Virus record (IMG/VR): IMGVR_UViG_2740892019_000008
Length of the DNA: 5,282 bases
From: a virus
Taxonomy: Duplodnaviria; Heunggongvirae; Uroviricota; Caudoviricetes
Reading direction: 5' to 3' (one strand)
Positions 1 to 5,282 of the stretch are shown one piece after another. A program made the position numbers and the translations under genes. Below the pieces are notes generated by a model. It worked only from the letters and a program-made list of their open reading frames with translations, searched no databases and was not told the DNA's origin. Each line of letters begins with the position of its first letter. Positions within the stretch are counted from its first letter, which is position 1.

Positions 1-1383
1 GCAGACCGCGCAGAAGCCGCAGCGGAAGTGACTGCAGAGCCCTGTGCGAATATAGTGCCGCCGCTGCCCGATGTGTGGATACCGTTTAATGATTCACTGG
101 ATATGATTACGGGCTTTTCGCCATCATATAAAAAAATTGTTATTGGCGACGATGAAATAACAATGCCTGGCGACAAGATTGTAAAGTTTAAACGCGCATC
201 GAAAGCAACTTACATTAATAAATCTGGTGTGCTGACAGAGGCTGCCATTGACGAGCCACGATTTGAACGTGATGGCCTGCTTATTGAGGGGCAAAGAACT
301 AACCTGCTAATCAATTCAACAAATCCGACTAAATGGAACAAGTCGTCAAATATGATCTTAAGTGCATCAGGTGTAGATGATTTCGGATTCCAGTACGCAA
401 AATTTACATTAAAACCAGAAATGGTAGGGCAAATTTCAGCGATTAACATAGTAACCGTTTCCGGCAGTAAAGGTTTTGATGTAACAGGCGGAGAAAAGTA
501 TGTAACCATATCATGCAGGGTGCAAAGTGGCACTCCAAATTTAAGATGCCGATTACGATTTGAAAACTATGATGGTTCTACCTACACATTCTTAGGTGAC
601 GCTTACTTAAATACGACAGATTTATCTATTGATAAGACGGGTGGTGCCGCTAATCGCATTACTGCAAGGGCTGTTAAAGATGAAGCAAGCAAATGGATCT
701 TTTTTGAGGCGACAATTAAGGCACTTGATACAGAAAATATGATAGGTGGAATGGTTCAGTATGCCCCGGCAAAAGGAGTGGGCACTGGCGCGGATGATTA
801 TATTTATATTGCGACCCCTCAAGTTGAAGGTGGGGCGTGCGCTTCATCGTTTATTATAACAGGCGCATCCCCTGTAACACGCGCCAGCGATATTGTAACG
901 GTCCCCATTTCTCTAAATTGGTGCAATCCCGCTATTAGTTCATTAGCAGAAGTTAATACCAATTGGGATGAATCGCCAAACAAAGAAGGTAGCGCACGTA
1001 TTCTTAATATTTCCACTACGGGAGATACAACTGAAATTGCAGATGAAAGTTATATGTATTTGGGGTATACATCTTTGGGAGCACGCGCAATCATTACAAA
1101 TGGTAAAGGCACTAAAATAGAATATAAAAGCGTTATAGAACGACCAGAGAGAAAAAGCATTATCGGCTTTAGATTCACAGAAAGTCGAGAATTGTGTGTT
1201 GTGGTTAACGGTAATATTGGTGCTAAGGTAGTTTCTCCTTATAAAAAACACAAATATACAGGAGGCTTCATTAATATTGGTGGTCAATCATCATCCGGCA
1301 ACCGTCACCTATTTGGACACGTTCGAAATCTGCGTATTTGGCACAAGGCATTGACTGATGCTCAGATGGGGGAGTCAATCTAA
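1..1383 (+). CDS. Phage tail fibre / receptor-binding protein, C-terminal part (5'-truncated at window edge), ending in a LamG/concanavalin-A-like domain
   Basis: The frame of the 28..1383 ORF is open back to position 1 with no stop. The GTG at 28 has no usable spacing to a Shine-Dalgarno and the first in-frame ATG (103) has none, so the gene most likely starts upstream of the window. The C-terminus (...GNRHLFGHVRNLRIWHKALTDAQM) resembles the conserved end of LamG-type lectin-like domains common in phage receptor-binding proteins. The stop TAA overlaps the next gene's ATG (TAATG at 1381..1385). Product call is by motif recognition and context only. Confidence 0.6.
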   Translation, partial: ADRAEAAAEVTAEPCANIVPPLPDVWIPFNDSLDMITGFSPSYKKIVIGDDEITMPGDKIVKFKRASKATYINKSGVLTEAAIDEPRFERDGLLIEGQRTNLLINSTNPTKWNKSSNMILSASGVDDFGFQYAKFTLKPEMVGQISAINIVTVSGSKGFDVTGGEKYVTISCRVQSGTPNLRCRLRFENYDGSTYTFLGDAYLNTTDLSIDKTGGAANRITARAVKDEASKWIFFEATIKALDTENMIGGMVQYAPAKGVGTGADDYIYIATPQVEGGACASSFIITGASPVTRASDIVTVPISLNWCNPAISSLAEVNTNWDESPNKEGSARILNISTTGDTTEIADESYMYLGYTSLGARAIITNGKGTKIEYKSVIERPERKSIIGFRFTESRELCVVVNGNIGAKVVSPYKKHKYTGGFINIGGQSSSGNRHLFGHVRNLRIWHKALTDAQMGESI

Positions 1384-1664
1384 TGAAAGATTTAACACTC
1401 AAATTTGCCGACAGGGCCGACTTTTCGGCCTTTATGGGAAGTATTGGCTATTATAATGACGAGTCGATGCAGGATGATATTCTGATTGATGTGATAGGTA
1501 ACGTGTACAAAGAAACCGGAGAGCTGACTGAAGATGGCGAACCGGTATGTGTTAAGGAAGATGGATATTTTGTAAACGTGCGCATCATTAAGGATACGCA
1601 AATATCGTCATTATTCGATGAATACGCGGTTGCTGTTGAGCATAAACTTCGTGGCTGGATGTGA
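1383..1664 (+). CDS. Hypothetical small acidic protein (93 aa), translationally coupled to the tail-fibre gene
   Basis: ATG at 1383 overlaps the upstream stop, with GGAG at 1371..1374 as Shine-Dalgarno. The protein is rich in D/E and has no transmembrane segment. Its position between a fibre gene and an S74-domain gene suggests a fibre assembly or adaptor role, but no recognisable motif supports that. Confidence 0.55.
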   Translation: MKDLTLKFADRADFSAFMGSIGYYNDESMQDDILIDVIGNVYKETGELTEDGEPVCVKEDGYFVNVRIIKDTQISSLFDEYAVAVEHKLRGWM

Positions 1665-1673
1665 GGTAGAGAA

Positions 1674-2378
1674 ATGGCTACATCAACAGTAATTCCGGGA
1701 GACATCACCACGCTGAAGGGAGATGTTAGTAAAGCAAAGGAAGATATTTCCTCTATTAACGGAAAAGTATCAACGCTTCAGACTGATATGGCCAGTGCAA
1801 AGCAGGATATCAGCACCAGATACACAAAAACTGAAGTTGATAATAAGCTGAAAAACAAAGTGGAAGTGAACGATCTGGAAAGTGGTCGTTATGGCGGAGA
1901 TTTTTACCCGCTGACTGGCCGTGAAGCGTTTTATTTATGGGGATTGGGCACAACTACAGCGGCGGCAAATCTTTATCTTAATCCTGACCCTGCAATTTCG
2001 TCTGTGCTGCGGTCAACATCGTCTATCCGCTATAAACATTCAGTAGAGACGATAGATTCAGAGCACGCCGATCTCATTTTCAGGATGCGCCCTGTGTGGT
2101 ACAGGTCGCAATGCGAAAATGACAGGCGTGACTGGGGATTCTATGGATTGATTGCCGAGGAAGTTGGAGAAATTGCCCCTCAGTTTGTTCACTGGCGACC
2201 AGCCAACGAAGATGATGCACCGGAAACCATTTCCAGCAATGGCCTTGTTGCCGAAGGTGTAATGTACGAACGTCTGGTTGTTCCACTGATTCACCATATC
2301 CAGAAGCTGACTGAAAGAGTTGATGAACTTGAGTCAGAATTAAAGTTGTTATCCGTTTCCCGAAGCGATATCGGATAA
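1674..2378 (+). CDS. Short tail-fibre-like protein with C-terminal peptidase S74 intramolecular-chaperone (auto-cleaving) domain
   Basis: GAGG at 1663..1666 lies 7 nt before the ATG at 1674. The N-terminal ~60 aa carry two copies of a K-x-D-[VI]-S-x-AK-x-DIS motif typical of fibre repeats. From about residue 116 the sequence fits the S74 chaperone domain (PF13884-like): S116-S-I-R-Y-K121 matches the S-[DS]-x-R-x-K Ser/Lys dyad motif (codons at 2019..2036), followed by WGFYGLIAEEVGEIAPQFV and a C-terminal coiled coil (ERVDELESELKLL). Confidence 0.75.
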   Translation: MATSTVIPGDITTLKGDVSKAKEDISSINGKVSTLQTDMASAKQDISTRYTKTEVDNKLKNKVEVNDLESGRYGGDFYPLTGREAFYLWGLGTTTAAANLYLNPDPAISSVLRSTSSIRYKHSVETIDSEHADLIFRMRPVWYRSQCENDRRDWGFYGLIAEEVGEIAPQFVHWRPANEDDAPETISSNGLVAEGVMYERLVVPLIHHIQKLTERVDELESELKLLSVSRSDIG

Positions 2379-2388
2379 AGGAGGAGTA

Positions 2389-2676
2389 ATGGATATAACA
2401 CCTTTTCTTCATGCGCTTTGTGCTGTGGCGGCGCAGGTACTGATTGGCCTTTTTACCGGAAACTGGATTTACGGGGCGATAGCCGGTTGTACGTTCTTCA
2501 TTGCGCGGGAACACACCCAAGCAGAATATCGCTGGATTGAAATGTTCGGGCATGGCAAGCGGATTAACATGCCGTGGTGGGGCGGTTTTGATACGCGCGT
2601 GTGGGATATGGCAAGTCTGATGGATTTTGCTGTGCCGGTGGTGGCGTGTTTACTTGTATTTATATTTTTTGAATAA
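2389..2676 (+). CDS. Hypothetical small membrane protein (95 aa, about three predicted transmembrane segments)
   Basis: Strong Shine-Dalgarno AAGGAGGA at 2379..2386, then ATG at 2389. Three hydrophobic stretches (FLHALCAVAAQVLIGLF, WIYGAIAGCTFFIA, FAVPVVACLLVFIFF). It is the last gene of the + strand operon and is followed immediately by a hairpin terminator. No lipobox or signal peptide is evident. Confidence 0.6.
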   Translation: MDITPFLHALCAVAAQVLIGLFTGNWIYGAIAGCTFFIAREHTQAEYRWIEMFGHGKRINMPWWGGFDTRVWDMASLMDFAVPVVACLLVFIFFE

Positions 2677-2681
2677 AATTA

Positions 2682-2708
2682 AGACCCCATCTATAACTGA
2701 TGGGGTCT
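2682..2708. terminator. Bidirectional rho-independent terminator between convergent operons
   Basis: Perfect 10-bp inverted repeat AGACCCCATC (2682..2691) and GATGGGGTCT (2699..2708) with a 7-nt loop. A T-rich tract follows on the + strand (2709..2720), and on the - strand the hairpin is followed by TTAATTTTATTC. It sits 6 nt after the 95-aa gene's stop and 17 nt after the sopB stop. Confidence 0.65.
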
Positions 2709-2724: not shown

Positions 2725-3714
2725 TTAGTTATTTTTTACATCGGAAGAATTTCCAAACGCCTCCTCAAGAATAGATTCAATTTTACTCATTAGGTGCGAT
2801 GGTATTTTTCTGTTATCTAATTTTAATGTTGTGAAATTTTTCCCATATTTCGCCACAACACCGTCTCCATATTTCTTTTCCCTTTTCTCTCCATGTGAAT
2901 TGTTTTTCTCAACAATAATGAAATCATGAAGAGCCTGTATTATTCTTTGCGCATCTAAACTTTCACCTGATTTTTTCATCCTCAGCAACTGAGATGCAGC
3001 ATTTTTCATGGCTGCTTCCTGTCCCTGATATGCTTTAAAAAGAGCGTCTCCTGCTCTGGCTGATAACTCACCAGGATGGTTAAATATTGCCAATATATCT
3101 TTAGGTAAACCGGCTGTATTAATACATCGACTGATAATATTTCTATCCACGCCTTCGGCTTCAGCTAAAGATTTTACGTTACCGTCAAATTCATGGAGCC
3201 TTCGCAGGTATCTTTTCCCCCTTTCATAGGCGCTGATAGGTCTATAGTCGTTGCCTATCTGCGATAACCATTGCATTTGTTCATCATCTAAATCGCCAAT
3301 AAGAACACGATAATCGCATCCAGTTATAATGGCTGCTTTACGTCTTCGAGAACCATCAGCTACTTCAACAATACCTGACACTTTTCTTGCGAAAGCCGGA
3401 TTTTGTTGCCCAGAAGTTAGAAAAGATGGAATTAAATCAGCTAGAGAAGATTCATTTAATAAATCTTGATCGCGCTCATTACCTAGCCATACCATTGTTG
3501 CCATTTCTACTTTATCTGCGGGGATCGTCTCTAACTTAAAGTTAACATTACGTCCGCATACTGGCAAAGTTATGCTATTACCGGTTAATGAACTCAGTTG
3601 ACGTTTTAAATCACCAACCATAGGTGATACCGGCTGATGTTCAGGTGCATGATGATTATTACTCATAATGCGATTAATATCCGGAGCATTTTTTAGAAGA
3701 GAGCGTTGTTTCAT
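2725..3714 (-). CDS. sopB: Partition protein SopB (ParB-family centromere-binding protein)
   Basis: The translation closely resembles F-plasmid SopB as recalled from memory (e.g. ...GNSITLPVCGRNVNF..., WLGNERDQDLL, LIPSFLTSGQQNPAFARKVSGIVEVADGSRRRKAAI). The ParB GSRRRKAA arginine-rich box is encoded at 3331..3354. The start ATG overlaps the sopA stop (ATGA at 3711..3714), indicating translational coupling. Confidence 0.9.
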   Translation of the reverse strand: MKQRSLLKNAPDINRIMSNNHHAPEHQPVSPMVGDLKRQLSSLTGNSITLPVCGRNVNFKLETIPADKVEMATMVWLGNERDQDLLNESSLADLIPSFLTSGQQNPAFARKVSGIVEVADGSRRRKAAIITGCDYRVLIGDLDDEQMQWLSQIGNDYRPISAYERGKRYLRRLHEFDGNVKSLAEAEGVDRNIISRCINTAGLPKDILAIFNHPGELSARAGDALFKAYQGQEAAMKNAASQLLRMKKSGESLDAQRIIQALHDFIIVEKNNSHGEKREKKYGDGVVAKYGKNFTTLKLDNRKIPSHLMSKIESILEEAFGNSSDVKNN

Positions 3715-4880
3715 TCTTCGTTCTCCCAGCGAGGTTTTATTAGATCATCAAAAATTTCTCGACAAACAGGATCCCATATAGAGACGGCATTTCTCCATGC
3801 ATTAAGTGTTGAACGCTGGTTTGCCGCTTGTTCAAATACTGTTCGCATTTTTATCTGACCTTTACCTACTTCATCGGTAACGCGTACAACCTGACGTAAT
3901 ACCATTGATCCCCATGTATTTCTTATTTGCTCTTCCATCCATCGTGATTGATTTCCTGTAGTGAGACTATATTTAGTCAGAAGCAAGCGAACGGTCGGCT
4001 CAAATCCGCCTAGGTCAACGCTTTCTAGGAGATCGAGAAGCATTGTGAAAAACTGTAGAACAGAGGCGTAATCAAATAATTCTGCAGGGGTAGCAACAAC
4101 GATAACGTCAGCTGCGCAAACAACGTTAATGGTTCCTGTACCGAGGTTTGGAGCACTATCTATAACGATAACATCGTAGTTATCCCAAACTGATTCTATA
4201 GCTGCGCGTAGCATCAGGTGAGGAGGGTGAGGCAATTTACCCTGAGCATGATATTGCATGAGATCTGTTTCTATACGGTGTAAAGCTAGGCAGCTAGGAA
4301 TAATGTCCAGTCCAGGCCAGCATGTTGGTTTTATAGCATATTCAGCGTTATCGCGTTCGCCTAAGTAAAATGGCAGTAAAGTATCCTCGGCATGGATATG
4401 TAAATCAGGTACATAACCGTGATACATGGAGGCTGTTCCCTGAGGATCGTTACCTTCAACTAAAAGAACACGATGGCCTTGTAATGCTAGCCATTGTGCC
4501 TGATGTACTGCAGACGATGTTTTATAAACGCCGCCTTTGTGTGACATAACAGCAAGCACAACTGGGTTTTTATCTTGTGGCCGTTGGTTTGGGTTGCCAA
4601 AAACAGCTCGCATACTATTGATTTGATCTATGGTATAACCGGCACGACGTTCAACTCTTCCTCTCATTTCAAAGTCAGGTGCAGGTAAACGCCCGTTCTT
4701 CTCAGCATCTCTTATTGCTTGAGGAGTTACACCAATTAAATCTGCTACTTCAGTTATCCCCCATCTACGCGTGATACGCCGAGCTTCAGGACTATCATCA
4801 CCGAATTGAGCGATAGCAATTGCTTTGGTCATTTCTTGACCACGCGTAACACAATCTTGTAATAACTTTTTCAAAGACAT
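3711..4880 (-). CDS. sopA: Partition ATPase SopA (type Ia ParA with N-terminal HTH extension)
   Basis: The translation closely resembles F-plasmid SopA as recalled from memory (EMTKAIAIAQF.DDSPEAR.ITRRW, VLLVEGNDPQGTASMYHG, DLHIHAEDTLLPFYLGE, IKPTCWPGLDIIPSCLALHRIE). A deviant Walker A KGGVYKT is encoded at 4518..4538. The N-terminal ~100 aa before Walker A are typical of autoregulating type Ia ParA proteins. GGAG Shine-Dalgarno (complement of 4889..4892) lies 8 nt before the ATG at 4880. Confidence 0.92.
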   Translation of the reverse strand: MSLKKLLQDCVTRGQEMTKAIAIAQFGDDSPEARRITRRWGITEVADLIGVTPQAIRDAEKNGRLPAPDFEMRGRVERRAGYTIDQINSMRAVFGNPNQRPQDKNPVVLAVMSHKGGVYKTSSAVHQAQWLALQGHRVLLVEGNDPQGTASMYHGYVPDLHIHAEDTLLPFYLGERDNAEYAIKPTCWPGLDIIPSCLALHRIETDLMQYHAQGKLPHPPHLMLRAAIESVWDNYDVIVIDSAPNLGTGTINVVCAADVIVVATPAELFDYASVLQFFTMLLDLLESVDLGGFEPTVRLLLTKYSLTTGNQSRWMEEQIRNTWGSMVLRQVVRVTDEVGKGQIKMRTVFEQAANQRSTLNAWRNAVSIWDPVCREIFDDLIKPRWENEE

Positions 4881-4901
4881 ACTGTCATCTCCAGCTTATA
4901 A

Positions 4902-4979
4902 CTTTGCTTAATAATTATTTCTTTGCATATTTCTAGCAAATTGACATAGAAAAAGCAAAGTAAAACAAAAAACGCAAAG
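4902..4979 (-). promoter_or_regulatory. Putative sopAB promoter/operator with four SopA-type CTTTGC hexamers in dyad-symmetric arrangement
   Basis: On the + strand CTTTGC occurs at 4902..4907 and 4921..4926, and GCAAAG at 4955..4960 and 4974..4979. Each pair is spaced 19 bp, and inner and outer pairs share the same centre (about 4940.5). F SopA is known to autoregulate by binding four CTTTGC motifs in its promoter. Exact -35/-10 elements were not pinned down. Confidence 0.55.
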
Positions 4980-5167
4980 ACGAAGATTTGAGCAAAATCA
5001 TCTTTTGTTTTATCCCTTAAATGCAAAAACAAACAACGACAAGCACATAACAAATTGATAATAAATGCTTTTTTAAAAGAAAGGAAATCGTATAAAACTA
5101 GGGAAACATGATGAAAATCATCAATGAGATACGTTTCCTCTATTTATTCTCCTAATCCTCACCAACA

Positions 5168-5268
5168 AAAGAACACAATCAAAGATTGTAAAACAACAAT
5201 AATAATGCACACAAAATAAAGAACACAAATACAGAAAGCAACAACACAATAAAAACAAGATAACACAA
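5168..5268 (+). repeat. A/C-rich, strand-asymmetric tract with direct repeats (AAAGAACACAA twice, AACACAA four times)
   Basis: AAAGAACACAA at 5168..5178 and 5218..5228. The core AACACAA starts at 5172, 5222, 5243 and 5262 (spacings 50, 21, 19 bp). The + strand here has almost no G or T. No ORF is listed in any frame. The tract runs to the window edge and may continue beyond it. Confidence 0.4.
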
Positions 5269-5282
5269 GCTATAAATATTAC

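What the first reader, a model, noticed from the sequence alone, without database searches (positions are those of the whole stretch)
1383..1664. Translationally coupled 93-aa acidic protein between the receptor-binding gene and the S74 gene
The start codon overlaps the stop of the fibre gene (TAATG), which implies tight co-expression with the receptor-binding protein. The protein is small, acidic and soluble, with no motif I can recognise. Its placement suggests a fibre chaperone or adaptor, or a linker between the two fibre-like proteins. It is unlike the known Tfa-type fibre assembly proteins I can recall.
Basis: inference. Interest (0 to 1): 0.4.

Follow-up and report, generated by a model that had tools for sequence, protein, structure and literature searches.

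The report
Small partner protein of lateral tail fibre
This is a real 93-residue acidic protein of unknown function that is always encoded right after one widespread type of phage side tail fibre, so it is very probably a helper or small subunit of that fibre rather than a link to the second fibre gene next to it.

Summary
ORF 1383-1664 (+) starts in a TAATG stop/start overlap with the fibre gene and has its own Shine-Dalgarno. It encodes a 93-aa protein (pI 4.3) and is followed by a Peptidase_S74 fibre gene.

The protein belongs to PHROG 1361 (function unknown). It has no Pfam or NCBIfam match and no solved structural relative. It is under purifying selection (dN/dS 0.22) and occurs in 18% of complete E. 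coli genomes, always labelled hypothetical.

Its invariant neighbour is the upstream fibre, not the S74 protein. In 139 of 143 loci it overlaps the stop codon of a fibre. Where inspected, that fibre ends in an RcGTA-head-spike-fibre-like domain plus a LamG-like domain. This holds in lambda-like, N15-like, T1-, T5-, Seurat-, Dhillon- and rV5-like phages, down to 24% fibre identity.

About 50 lambdoid prophages, including the isolated phage Perceval, keep the gene under selection (dN/dS 0.32) with no S74 gene nearby; Perceval has none genome-wide.

The protein is nearly invariant while the fibre's receptor-binding segments vary. It diverges together with the fibre's conserved segments.

Best reading: a fibre-specific assembly factor or small bound subunit, a family unrelated to Tfa-type chaperones. 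The "joint for the second fibre" reading is weakened, not excluded. Biochemistry is untested. Interest is moderate.

The parts
1..1383 (+). 3' part of the lateral (side) tail fibre gene; the ORF is open at the left edge of the window. This is the invariant upstream partner of the small gene.
   Evidence: There is no stop codon in codons 1-9. It matches phrog_1419 'tail protein' at E 1.8e-195, covering profile positions 351-793. The C-terminal ~450 aa are homologous at 36-72% identity to the fibres of eight phages from different families.
187..912 (+). Fibre domain related to the head spike fibre of the Rhodobacter gene transfer agent RcGTA (ORF residues 54-295).
   Evidence: phmmer against the PDB hits 6tb9 'Head spike fiber Rcc01080' at E 5.9e-5. 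NCBIfam NF048003 GTA_spike_fiber scores 63.6 bits against a cut-off of 36.
1192..1365 (+). C-terminal strands of a LamG / concanavalin-A-like domain that ends the fibre. The last ~25-35 aa are the best-conserved part of the distal fibre.
   Evidence: PF13385 Laminin_G_3 matches at E 9.6e-4, below the gathering score. Eight of 11 diverse homologous fibre ends hit PF13385, best E 1.4e-5. In the conservation profile the last 25 columns score 0.86, against 0.36-0.69 for the preceding ~350. PMC11990801 describes a galectin-like C-terminal domain in the homologue IrisVonRoten Gp22.
1369..1374 (+). Shine-Dalgarno sequence (GGGGAG) for the small gene, lying inside the last codons of the fibre gene.
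   Evidence: Read from the sequence. A GGAG-like motif lies 4-18 nt upstream of the start in 139 of 143 related loci.
1381..1385 (+). TAATG stop/start overlap between the fibre gene and the small gene.
   Evidence: Across related loci there are 57 TAATG and 82 ATGA overlaps among 143.
1383..1664 (+). The finding itself: the gene for a 93-aa acidic alpha/beta protein of PHROG 1361.
   Evidence: It matches phrog_1361 at E 5.5e-44 over the full length. There is no Pfam or NCBIfam hit. The AF2 model has pLDDT 90.2 with topology beta-alpha-alpha-beta4-alpha. dN/dS is 0.22.
1674..2378 (+). Second, short fibre-like protein (234 aa) with a conserved N-terminal motif, a coiled coil and a Peptidase_S74 intramolecular chaperone domain. 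It is a frequent but not obligatory neighbour of the small gene.
   Evidence: PF13884 matches at E 4.7e-6, 27.2 bits against a cut-off of 22, residues 116-172. phrog_3299 matches at E 2.3e-140. The gene is absent from about 50 Perceval-type loci and from the nimi and ev243 loci.
1674..1718 (+). Conserved N-terminal motif MATSTVIPGDITTLK of the S74 protein; a presumed docking peptide.
   Evidence: The motif T[VI][IT][PN]xDIxxLK is shared by S74 proteins of N15-like, T1-like, T5-like and Seurat-like phages. The first 25 aa score 0.89 in conservation against 0.41-0.64 for the rest.
2389..2676 (+). Last gene of the operon: a 95-aa hydrophobic protein, probably membrane-located.
   Evidence: phrog_1443 (function unknown) matches at E 7.7e-56. 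It directly follows the small gene in 46 loci that lack the S74 gene.
2682..2708 (.). Bidirectional terminator-like hairpin that closes the fibre operon and the convergent sopB/sopA operon.
   Evidence: No promoter-like or terminator-like site lies between 1383 and 2631 on the + strand.

Best explanation
The ORF encodes a real, soluble, acidic 10.6-kDa alpha/beta protein. It is the dedicated partner of one particular lateral-tail-fibre distal module: an RcGTA-head-spike-fibre-like domain followed by a LamG-like lectin domain.

It is translated from the same late mRNA as the fibre. A ribosome finishing the fibre gene can restart at the overlapping ATG, which also has its own Shine-Dalgarno, so the two proteins are made together.

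It acts on the conserved scaffold of the fibre's distal module, not on the variable receptor-contacting segments. Most likely it helps that module fold or assemble, and it may stay attached as a small subunit. It does this whether or not a second, S74-type fibre is encoded downstream.

Shown: that it is coding, the coupling signals, the obligate pairing with this fibre type, its independence of the S74 gene, and the pattern of conservation.

Inferred: physical binding to the fibre, and an assembly role.
For: Real and selected:
- Full-length match to phrog_1361.
- dN/dS 0.22 in 81 loci of the window's type.
- Present in 988 of 5,426 complete E. coli genomes.

Coupling:
- TAATG here, preceded by GGGGAG.
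- Overlap in 139 of 143 loci and an SD-like motif in 139 of 143.
- No terminator or promoter between the genes.

Obligate pairing with the fibre module:
- The same gene order holds in N15-like, lambdoid, Dhillonvirus, T1-like, Seuratvirus, T5-like and rV5-like phages, whose fibres share only the C-terminal ~450 aa.
- The pairing persists in the most distant family members and with fibres only 24-31% identical.
- It also appears once inside a head-gene cluster.
- 220 phage records carry the fibre module and 181 have a detectable small protein. Three sampled records whose small-protein allele scores weakly (PhiR55_1, AKFV33, HMD-P3) all turned out to hold divergent members.

Independence of the S74 protein:
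- About 50 Perceval-type loci have fibre, small gene and then a membrane protein, with dN/dS 0.32.
- Perceval's 50 kb contain no S74 homologue or motif.

Target is the conserved scaffold:
- Conservation of the small protein is 0.94-0.98 while the distal fibre is 0.36-0.69.
- Its divergence correlates with conserved fibre segments and the last 35 aa (rho 0.65-0.75). It does not correlate with variable segments (0.17-0.37) or with the S74 N-terminus (0.13).

Need for a helper:
- This fibre has no S74 domain of its own, and the window holds no Tfa gene.
- From established knowledge, trimeric fibres of lambda, Mu, P2 and T4 need a chaperone encoded just downstream.
Against: - No experiment and no interface model exist.
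- Known downstream chaperones (Tfa, gp38) co-vary with the fibre tip, whereas this protein does not.
- The conserved island runs from the fibre's last ~25 aa through the small protein to the first 25 aa of the S74 protein. A second fibre follows in 85 of 143 loci. Both facts fit a structural junction equally well.
- The correlation analysis uses only 15 modules, which are phylogenetically non-independent, and physical linkage inflates correlation with neighbouring DNA.
Confidence: 0.45

Rival explanations
1. Structural joint or adaptor. The small protein stays on the end of the proximal fibre and forms, or completes, the socket into which the conserved N-terminal peptide (TVIPxDIxxLK) of the downstream S74 fibre plugs. 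This would give a branched or two-segment fibre, in the way T4 gp35/gp36 join the half-fibres.
For: - The gene lies exactly between the two fibre genes here and in 85 of 143 loci.
- The conserved island covers the fibre's last ~25 aa, the small protein and the first 25 aa of the S74 protein, flanked by two variable cassettes.
- S74 proteins with quite different bodies (227-586 aa) share the N-terminal motif, and in every case inspected they sit 9-12 nt after a family member.
- PMC11990801 proposes that IrisVonRoten Gp24 attaches to the proximal fibre Gp22 but leaves the intervening Gp23 (a family member) unassigned.
Against: - The gene is retained intact under purifying selection in about 50 loci, and in the viable phage Perceval, with no S74 gene or motif. 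The S74 gene is also absent after the small gene in nimi, L090 and L152.
- There is no co-divergence with the S74 N-terminus (rho 0.13).
- PhiR55_1 combines a 28-32%-identical small protein with an S74 gene about 93% identical in DNA to the window's.
- In distant members the following fibre has a different N-terminus.
Confidence: 0.25
2. Transient cap. The protein binds the LamG-like lectin domain of newly made fibres and masks it until assembly or release, limiting premature binding to host glycans or cell debris. This follows the idea proposed for separate fibre chaperones of Alteromonas phages.
For: - It is strictly paired with a fibre ending in a lectin-like domain.
- Its strongly acidic surface is conserved.
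- It is made together with the fibre.
- The concept is described in PMC10579305 and cited in PMC11990801.
Against: - The Alteromonas caps resemble intramolecular chaperone (S74-like) domains. This protein does not.
- It is invariant while the putative glycan-binding segments vary, so it is unlikely to sit on the binding site itself.
- There is no direct evidence of any kind.
Confidence: 0.1
3. Passenger gene. The ORF has a function unrelated to the fibre, for example a host-directed or anti-defence role. It merely travels with the fibre cassette because it sits in the conserved stretch where cassettes recombine.
For: - The small gene is the most conserved stretch between two recombining cassettes, and all four combinations of flanking alleles occur.
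- Accessory genes often sit downstream of tail fibre genes; here a membrane protein does so.
- No fold or family link to any fibre-related protein was found.
Against: - A passenger would not keep its position and overlap behind the same fibre module in strictly lytic T1-, T5-, Seurat- and rV5-like phages as well as in temperate ones, down to 24-31% fibre identity.
- It co-diverges with conserved fibre segments.
Confidence: 0.1
4. Not a gene: a chance ORF, or only a spacer used for translational restart.
For: Nothing beyond its small size and its lack of annotation.
Against: - The full-length protein is conserved at 31-59% identity across phage families.
- dN/dS is 0.22-0.32.
- The predicted fold is confident, with pLDDT 90.
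- N-terminal (MKDLTLKF) and C-terminal (PxRxW) motifs are conserved.
Confidence: 0.01

Closest known systems
Tail fibre assembly proteins of the Tfa / Caudo_TAP type (lambda Tfa, Mu U, P2 G; Pfam PF02413) and T4 gp38
   Same: It is a small protein encoded immediately downstream of the fibre gene and co-expressed with it. It is needed only in connection with that fibre, and the fibre-helper pair moves between unrelated phages as a unit.
   Different: - There is no sequence match and no fold match.
- It is about half the size.
- It does not co-vary with the variable fibre tip.
- It coexists with a true Caudo_TAP gene that serves another fibre in locus L150.
Intramolecular chaperone domain (Peptidase_S74, PF13884), and the separate IMC-like 'cap' chaperones of Alteromonas phages A5/V22 (PMC10579305)
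   Same: It may supply in trans the folding help that the upstream fibre lacks. That fibre has no S74 domain, whereas the neighbouring fibre carries one in cis. The Alteromonas fibre-chaperone module is also shared by morphologically different phages.
   Different: The protein has no similarity to S74 domains, while the Alteromonas chaperones do resemble them.
Joint proteins of segmented or branched fibres: T4 gp35/gp36, and LtfA-LtfB of the T5-like phage DT57C (PMC4728585, PMC10713586)
   Same: It lies between a proximal and a distal fibre gene. T5-like phages with this module (IrisVonRoten, AKFV33) have two-protein lateral fibres.
   Different: - In DT57C the two fibre genes are numbered consecutively (gp108, gp107) and no third protein is described.
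- The small protein is kept where no distal fibre exists.
- It shows no homology to gp35 or gp36: no annotated PHROG was hit.
PHROG 1361, which includes AKFV33 orf136, IrisVonRoten Gp23 and Perceval PERCE_23
   Same: This is the family to which the window's protein belongs. All members seen are annotated 'hypothetical', or once 'tail fiber protein', in public records.
   Different: There is no difference in kind. The family is catalogued, but no paper I could search gives it a function.
RcGTA head spike fibre Rcc01080 (PDB 6TB9, 6TBA, 6TSU, 6TUI); a relative of the partner fibre, not of the small protein
   Same: Residues 54-295 of the window's fibre are homologous to it (NF048003). It is a glycan-binding appendage.
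   Different: The RcGTA protein is 325 aa, so it has no room for a LamG-like end of this size. No family member from Rhodobacter turned up in 1.8 billion representatives. This fits, but does not prove, a link between the small protein and the LamG-like end.

Membership tests
PHROG 1361 (uncharacterised small protein downstream of lateral tail fibre genes) | Full-length match to the family profile | tested here: met
   E 5.5e-44, residues 1-93 against profile positions 1-92 of 92.
PHROG 1361 (uncharacterised small protein downstream of lateral tail fibre genes) | Gene lies directly after a fibre ending in the head-spike-fibre-like plus LamG-like module (a feature derived here, not a published definition) | tested here: met
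   Window. Across the family: 139 of 143 loci overlap the upstream ORF, and distant members keep the arrangement.
Tfa / Caudo_TAP tail fibre assembly proteins (PF02413) | Sequence match to PF02413 or to an annotated tail-fibre-assembly PHROG | tested here: not met
   No Pfam family at E <= 1. The only PHROG hits are 1361 and 18574, both of unknown function.
Tfa / Caudo_TAP tail fibre assembly proteins (PF02413) | Fold resembling solved fibre chaperones | tested here: not met
Tfa / Caudo_TAP tail fibre assembly proteins (PF02413) | Encoded immediately downstream of, and co-expressed with, its fibre | tested here: met
Tfa / Caudo_TAP tail fibre assembly proteins (PF02413) | Required for folding or trimerisation of the fibre tip | not testable with these tools
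   This needs co-expression and solubility assays.
Peptidase_S74 intramolecular chaperone (PF13884) | Presence of the S74 domain | tested here: not met
   There is no hit for the small protein. The neighbouring ORF 1674-2378 does have the domain.
T4 gp57A-type general fibre chaperone | Sequence similarity, and a small all-helical coiled-coil protein (the fold description is from my own knowledge of gp57A) | tested here: not met
   No annotated PHROG was hit. The model is a mixed alpha/beta fold with a five-stranded sheet. Only the small size and acidity are shared.
Fibre joint or adaptor proteins (T4 gp35/gp36; gp10-like branching domains of G7C and CBA120) | Sequence or fold similarity to a known joint or branching domain | tested here: not met
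   No Pfam or PHROG hit and no solved relative.
Fibre joint or adaptor proteins (T4 gp35/gp36; gp10-like branching domains of G7C and CBA120) | Present in the virion at the junction of two fibre segments | not testable with these tools
   No virion proteome covering a 10-kDa protein was found. The AKFV33 study analysed only four gel bands.
Fibre joint or adaptor proteins (T4 gp35/gp36; gp10-like branching domains of G7C and CBA120) | Occurs only together with the distal fibre it joins | tested here: not met
   About 50 loci lack an S74 or other second fibre gene next to it, and the whole Perceval genome has none.
MecA C-terminal (adaptor) domain fold | Significant structural similarity | tested here: inconclusive

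The most novel reading that the evidence does not exclude
The small protein is a permanent structural 'knee' on the end of the proximal fibre. Together with the fibre's invariant last ~30 residues it would form a universal socket for the conserved TVIPxDIxxLK N-terminal peptide. Any distal fibre carrying that peptide could then be plugged in, and the conserved DNA island would double as the homology arm for swapping receptor-binding cassettes on either side. Phages without a distal fibre would simply carry an empty socket.
Probability: 0.2. Interest if true: 0.6.

Novelty: new variant of a known kind. Interest (0 to 1): 0.4.

Why it matters
Lateral fibres of this type decide which O-antigens T1-, T5-, lambda-, Dhillon-, Seurat- and rV5-like coliphages can penetrate. 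They are prime targets for host-range engineering.

A conserved, obligatory 10-kDa partner has so far been annotated 'hypothetical' and left out of published fibre models. If it is needed for folding or assembly, it would have to be co-expressed or co-transferred for engineered or recombinant fibres to work. That would add a new, non-homologous family to the short list of fibre helpers.

If it is instead a structural socket, it would explain how very different distal fibres are exchanged on one proximal fibre.

The gene is common, with 1,529 copies in 988 of 5,426 complete E. coli genomes. It is cheap to test in BASEL collection phages that are already available.

Tried and rejected
1. Complex modelling. 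I fused the fibre's last 260 aa to the small protein through a Gly-Ser linker, using a paired alignment of 11 modules. Structure prediction turned it away because the sequences are not exact window or search sequences.
2. The afdb50 fold library was not installed.
3. A natural fusion of fibre and small protein would have allowed modelling. None was seen among the hits listed; the members listed are 36-150 aa.
4. Two long repetitive adhesins (P0158, P0160) hit query residues 33-63 in several stretches. They carry Ig-like, cadherin-like and LamG repeats. I judged these compositional matches to an acidic Gly/Thr-rich loop, not homology.
5. phmmer against the PDB gave only E > 0.5 hits.
6. Phage N15 itself does not carry the gene; its gene 25 fibre is followed by a UmuD-like gene. 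So 'N15 gp25/26' is not the reference for this module, although the window is from an N15-like linear plasmid prophage.
7. I looked for virion proteomics that might show the protein. The rV5 study concerns fibres that carry an S74 end. The 9g paper has no mass spectrometry. The AKFV33 study analysed only four large gel bands. The DT57C and BF23 papers describe LtfA/LtfB without a small intervening gene.
8. I considered an adhesin-at-the-tip role, as for T2 or S16 gp38. I rejected it because the protein is nearly invariant where host specificity varies.
Full report
**What is in the window**

The window is the right arm of an N15-like linear plasmid prophage with a lambda-type tail module. From position 1269 onward it is 96.8% identical to Escherichia phage PhiR46_1. 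In that phage the same genes are followed by ParB, ParA and the telR end.

On the + strand there is one operon:
- the 3' part of a side tail fibre gene, open at the left edge of the window (1-1383);
- the 93-aa ORF (1383-1664);
- a 234-aa Peptidase_S74 protein (1674-2378);
- a 95-aa hydrophobic protein (2389-2676);
- a bidirectional terminator (2682-2708).

The sopB- and sopA-like genes converge on this terminator from the other strand.

**The observation**

- The fibre's TAA and the ATG share one base (TAATG, 1381-1385), and GGGGAG lies 8 nt upstream.
- The product is 10.6 kDa, pI 4.28, net charge about -10.
- It has no Pfam or NCBIfam match.
- The downstream protein passes the Pfam threshold for Peptidase_S74.

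The ORF is a real gene.
- It matches PHROG 1361 (function unknown) end to end at E 5.5e-44.
- It has 224 homologous 90% clusters in the large protein collection, and 47 clusters at 50% identity among 1.8 billion representatives.
- Alleles with at least 80% DNA identity occur 1,529 times in 988 of 5,426 complete E. coli genomes, labelled 'hypothetical protein' in every row shown.
- Pairwise dN/dS over 38 distinct alleles is 0.22.
- AlphaFold2 with a 21-sequence alignment gives a confident compact alpha/beta model: pLDDT 90.2, a strand, two helices, four strands, a helix, then a less confident C-terminal tail ending in the nearly invariant R-x-W.

**Who its partner is**

I compared the gene's surroundings in public phage genomes, IMG/VR contigs and metagenome contigs. 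The gene directly follows a lateral tail fibre gene in all of these:
- N15-like (PhiR46_1) and lambdoid phages (ev243, Perceval, PhiR55_1);
- a phage with a lambda-type tail module (IdasGreatGrand) and Dhillonvirus records;
- T1-like Drexlerviridae (PeterMerian and many others);
- Seuratvirus (VogelGryff);
- T5-like phages (IrisVonRoten, AKFV33, HMD-P3);
- rV5-like myoviruses (nimi).

These fibres differ in their N-terminal parts. They share a homologous C-terminal ~450 aa at 36-72% identity to the window's. That shared part consists of two domains:
- a domain related to the solved head spike fibre Rcc01080 of the Rhodobacter gene transfer agent (PDB 6TB9, E 5.9e-5; NF048003);
- a LamG / concanavalin-A-like end. 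Pfam PF13385 is sub-threshold here but hit by 8 of 11 diverse homologues. The BASEL authors describe it as 'galectin-like' for IrisVonRoten Gp22.

Across 143 loci with an intact small gene:
- 139 show a stop/start overlap with the long upstream ORF (82 ATGA, 57 TAATG);
- 139 have an SD-like motif in front.

The pairing persists at the edge of detectability.
- Family members only 31-37% identical to the window's protein, from unidentified metagenomic phages, again overlap a gene ending in the LamG-type C-terminal strands.
- The weakest full-length fibre hit in GenBank phages (HMD-P3, 24% identity) is also followed by a family member, this time after a 45-nt spacer.
- In one contig (L152) a 393-aa version of the fibre module plus the small gene sits between the portal and prohead protease genes.

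No fusion of the small protein to any other protein was seen among the hits listed.

**The S74 protein is a frequent neighbour, not the partner**

A fibre-like protein with the conserved N-terminus T[VI][IT][PN]xDIxxLK and a C-terminal S74 domain follows in 85 of 143 loci. Wherever I found that N-terminal motif in phage genomes and inspected its surroundings, it sat just after a family member.

However, about 50 lambdoid E. coli prophage loci have fibre, small gene and then directly the 95-97-aa membrane protein. Perceval belongs to this group. It is an isolated phage with a complete lambda-like structural gene set, and it has no S74 homologue or motif in 50,000 of its 50,143 bp. In this S74-less group the small gene is intact in 49 of 50 loci, with dN/dS 0.32. 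The rV5-like phage nimi and two distant contigs also lack a following fibre gene.

A role that exists only to connect the two fibres therefore cannot be the whole story.

**What it is likely to touch**

I compared 58 distinct haplotypes of the window's clade. Mean pairwise protein identity was:

| Segment | Mean pairwise identity |
|---|---|
| Distal ~350 aa of the fibre | 0.36-0.69 |
| Fibre's last 25 aligned columns | 0.86 |
| Small protein | 0.94-0.98 |
| First 25 aa of the S74 protein | 0.89 |
| Rest of the S74 protein | 0.41-0.64 |

The small gene is thus the core of a conserved island between two hypervariable cassettes. All four combinations of flanking allele types occur.

Over 15 divergent modules, divergence of the small protein correlates as follows:
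- conserved fibre segments and the last 35 aa: Spearman 0.65-0.75;
- variable fibre segments: 0.17-0.37;
- the S74 N-terminus: 0.13.

PhiR55_1 illustrates this. Its small protein is 28-32% identical to the window's and its fibre end has diverged in step, yet its S74 gene is about 93% identical in DNA.

These numbers come from few and related sequences and are confounded by linkage. The direction is nevertheless consistent: the protein goes with the fibre's conserved scaffold. It does not go with the receptor-contacting surface, which argues against an adhesin or a tip-specific Tfa-like chaperone. It does not go with the second fibre either.

**Comparison with what is known**

- There is no sequence relative with a known function. 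Pfam, NCBIfam and annotated PHROGs give nothing, and all source names are 'hypothetical'.
- It is not a Tfa/Caudo_TAP protein, and in locus L150 it coexists with one that serves another fibre.
- It is not S74-like, unlike the separate 'cap' chaperones of Alteromonas phages.
- The searchable literature does not discuss it. The two BASEL papers model IrisVonRoten's proximal fibre Gp22 and T-shaped distal fibre Gp24 and do not assign the intervening Gp23; it is named once, apparently in place of Gp22. The AKFV33 paper names orf137 and orf135 as fibre proteins and passes over orf136.

**Most likely mechanism and rivals**

I think it most likely (about 0.45) that the protein binds the conserved scaffold of the fibre's distal module and assists its folding or assembly, perhaps remaining bound. 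It is made in step with the fibre by translational coupling. The fibre has no intramolecular chaperone of its own, and no Tfa gene lies in the window.

The rivals are:
- a permanent structural joint that offers the docking site for the next fibre (0.25). The conserved island and the gene order favour it; its retention without a second fibre and the lack of co-divergence count against it;
- a transient cap on the lectin-like domain (0.1);
- an unrelated passenger gene at a recombination hub (0.1);
- a non-gene (effectively excluded).

The general statement that this is a dedicated accessory protein of this fibre type I hold at about 0.85-0.9.

**Novelty and value**

The family is already catalogued but has no assigned function. 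The role proposed is of a known kind (fibre helper or subunit), carried out by a family unrelated in sequence and fold to the known ones. I therefore rate it 'new variant of a known kind'.

It would not astonish a phage specialist. Still, it is widespread, systematically ignored in fibre models, directly relevant to fibre engineering, and easy to test. Interest is 0.4.

Noticed in passing
window 2389-2676 (+); also L007 4289-4582, L008 4292-4585, L090 878-1204, L152 6279-6566: A 95-97-aa hydrophobic protein (phrog_1443, function unknown, no Pfam hit) ends the fibre operon. In about 46 prophage loci it follows the small gene directly. In two very distant members the small gene is followed by a different small membrane protein, of family DUF5658. 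A small membrane protein after this module therefore recurs. It could be an exclusion or conversion gene, or something linked to the module.
   Followed up: partly
window 1674-2378 (+): The S74 protein comes in alleles of about 234 aa and about 346 aa in E. coli prophages, and up to 586 aa in T5-like phages. All share the first ~15-25 residues (MATSTVIPxDIxxLK). The 234-aa form is little more than a coiled coil plus the chaperone domain, and BASEL records annotate such short forms as 'putative lateral tail fiber chaperone'. What the mature ~115-residue product does is unclear.
   Followed up: partly
window about 1269: There is a mosaic boundary. PhiR46_1 is 96.8% identical to the window from 1269 to the end, but its fibre is only 52% identical in protein upstream of that point. 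The recombination breakpoint therefore lies ~38 codons before the fibre stop, at the start of the conserved island.
   Followed up: partly
window 2725-4880 (-) and 4880-5282: SopB/ParB-like (PF18090) and SopA/ParA-like partition genes are present. In PhiR46_1 the window's last base corresponds to a position 45 bp before the annotated telR site. The window is thus the right end of an N15-like linear plasmid prophage, but its fibre module is absent from N15 itself. 47 of the 1,529 E. coli copies of the small gene are on plasmids.
   Followed up: partly
L152 4816-6566: A 393-aa stand-alone version of the fibre module, the small gene and a DUF5658 membrane protein sit between the portal and the S49 prohead protease genes of a lambda-like head cluster. 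Given the homology to the RcGTA head spike fibre, this may be a head fibre rather than a tail fibre.
   Followed up: partly
L154 2484-5105 (AKFV33 orf137, orf136): The published virion band of AKFV33 ORF137 runs at 95.8 kDa against a predicted 83.05 kDa. The excess of 12.7 kDa is close to the 10.1 kDa of the family member orf136. Another band in that table lies within about 1 kDa of its prediction (ORF146, 51.7 vs 50.5 kDa). This may be anomalous migration. No orf136 peptides are listed in the supplement.
   Followed up: partly
L155 3743-3787 (HMD-P3): This is an exception to the stop/start overlap. A 45-nt spacer containing an inverted repeat (AGGAGCATTATATAATGCTCC) separates the fibre gene from the small gene, which has its own AAGGA.
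   Followed up: no
window 2682-2708: A perfect 10-bp-stem hairpin with T-runs on both strands lies between the convergent fibre operon and sopB. It looks like a shared bidirectional terminator.
   Followed up: no
phage records listed (e.g. MG065676.1, MG065666.1, MG065654.1, OR848352.1): Several GenBank records named 'Campylobacter phage' (about 135 kb, one of 59.5 kb) and 'Listeria phage' (7.5 kb) carry this coliphage fibre module with the same identities as rV5-like or T5-like E. coli phages. They look like mislabelled or contaminant records.
   Followed up: no
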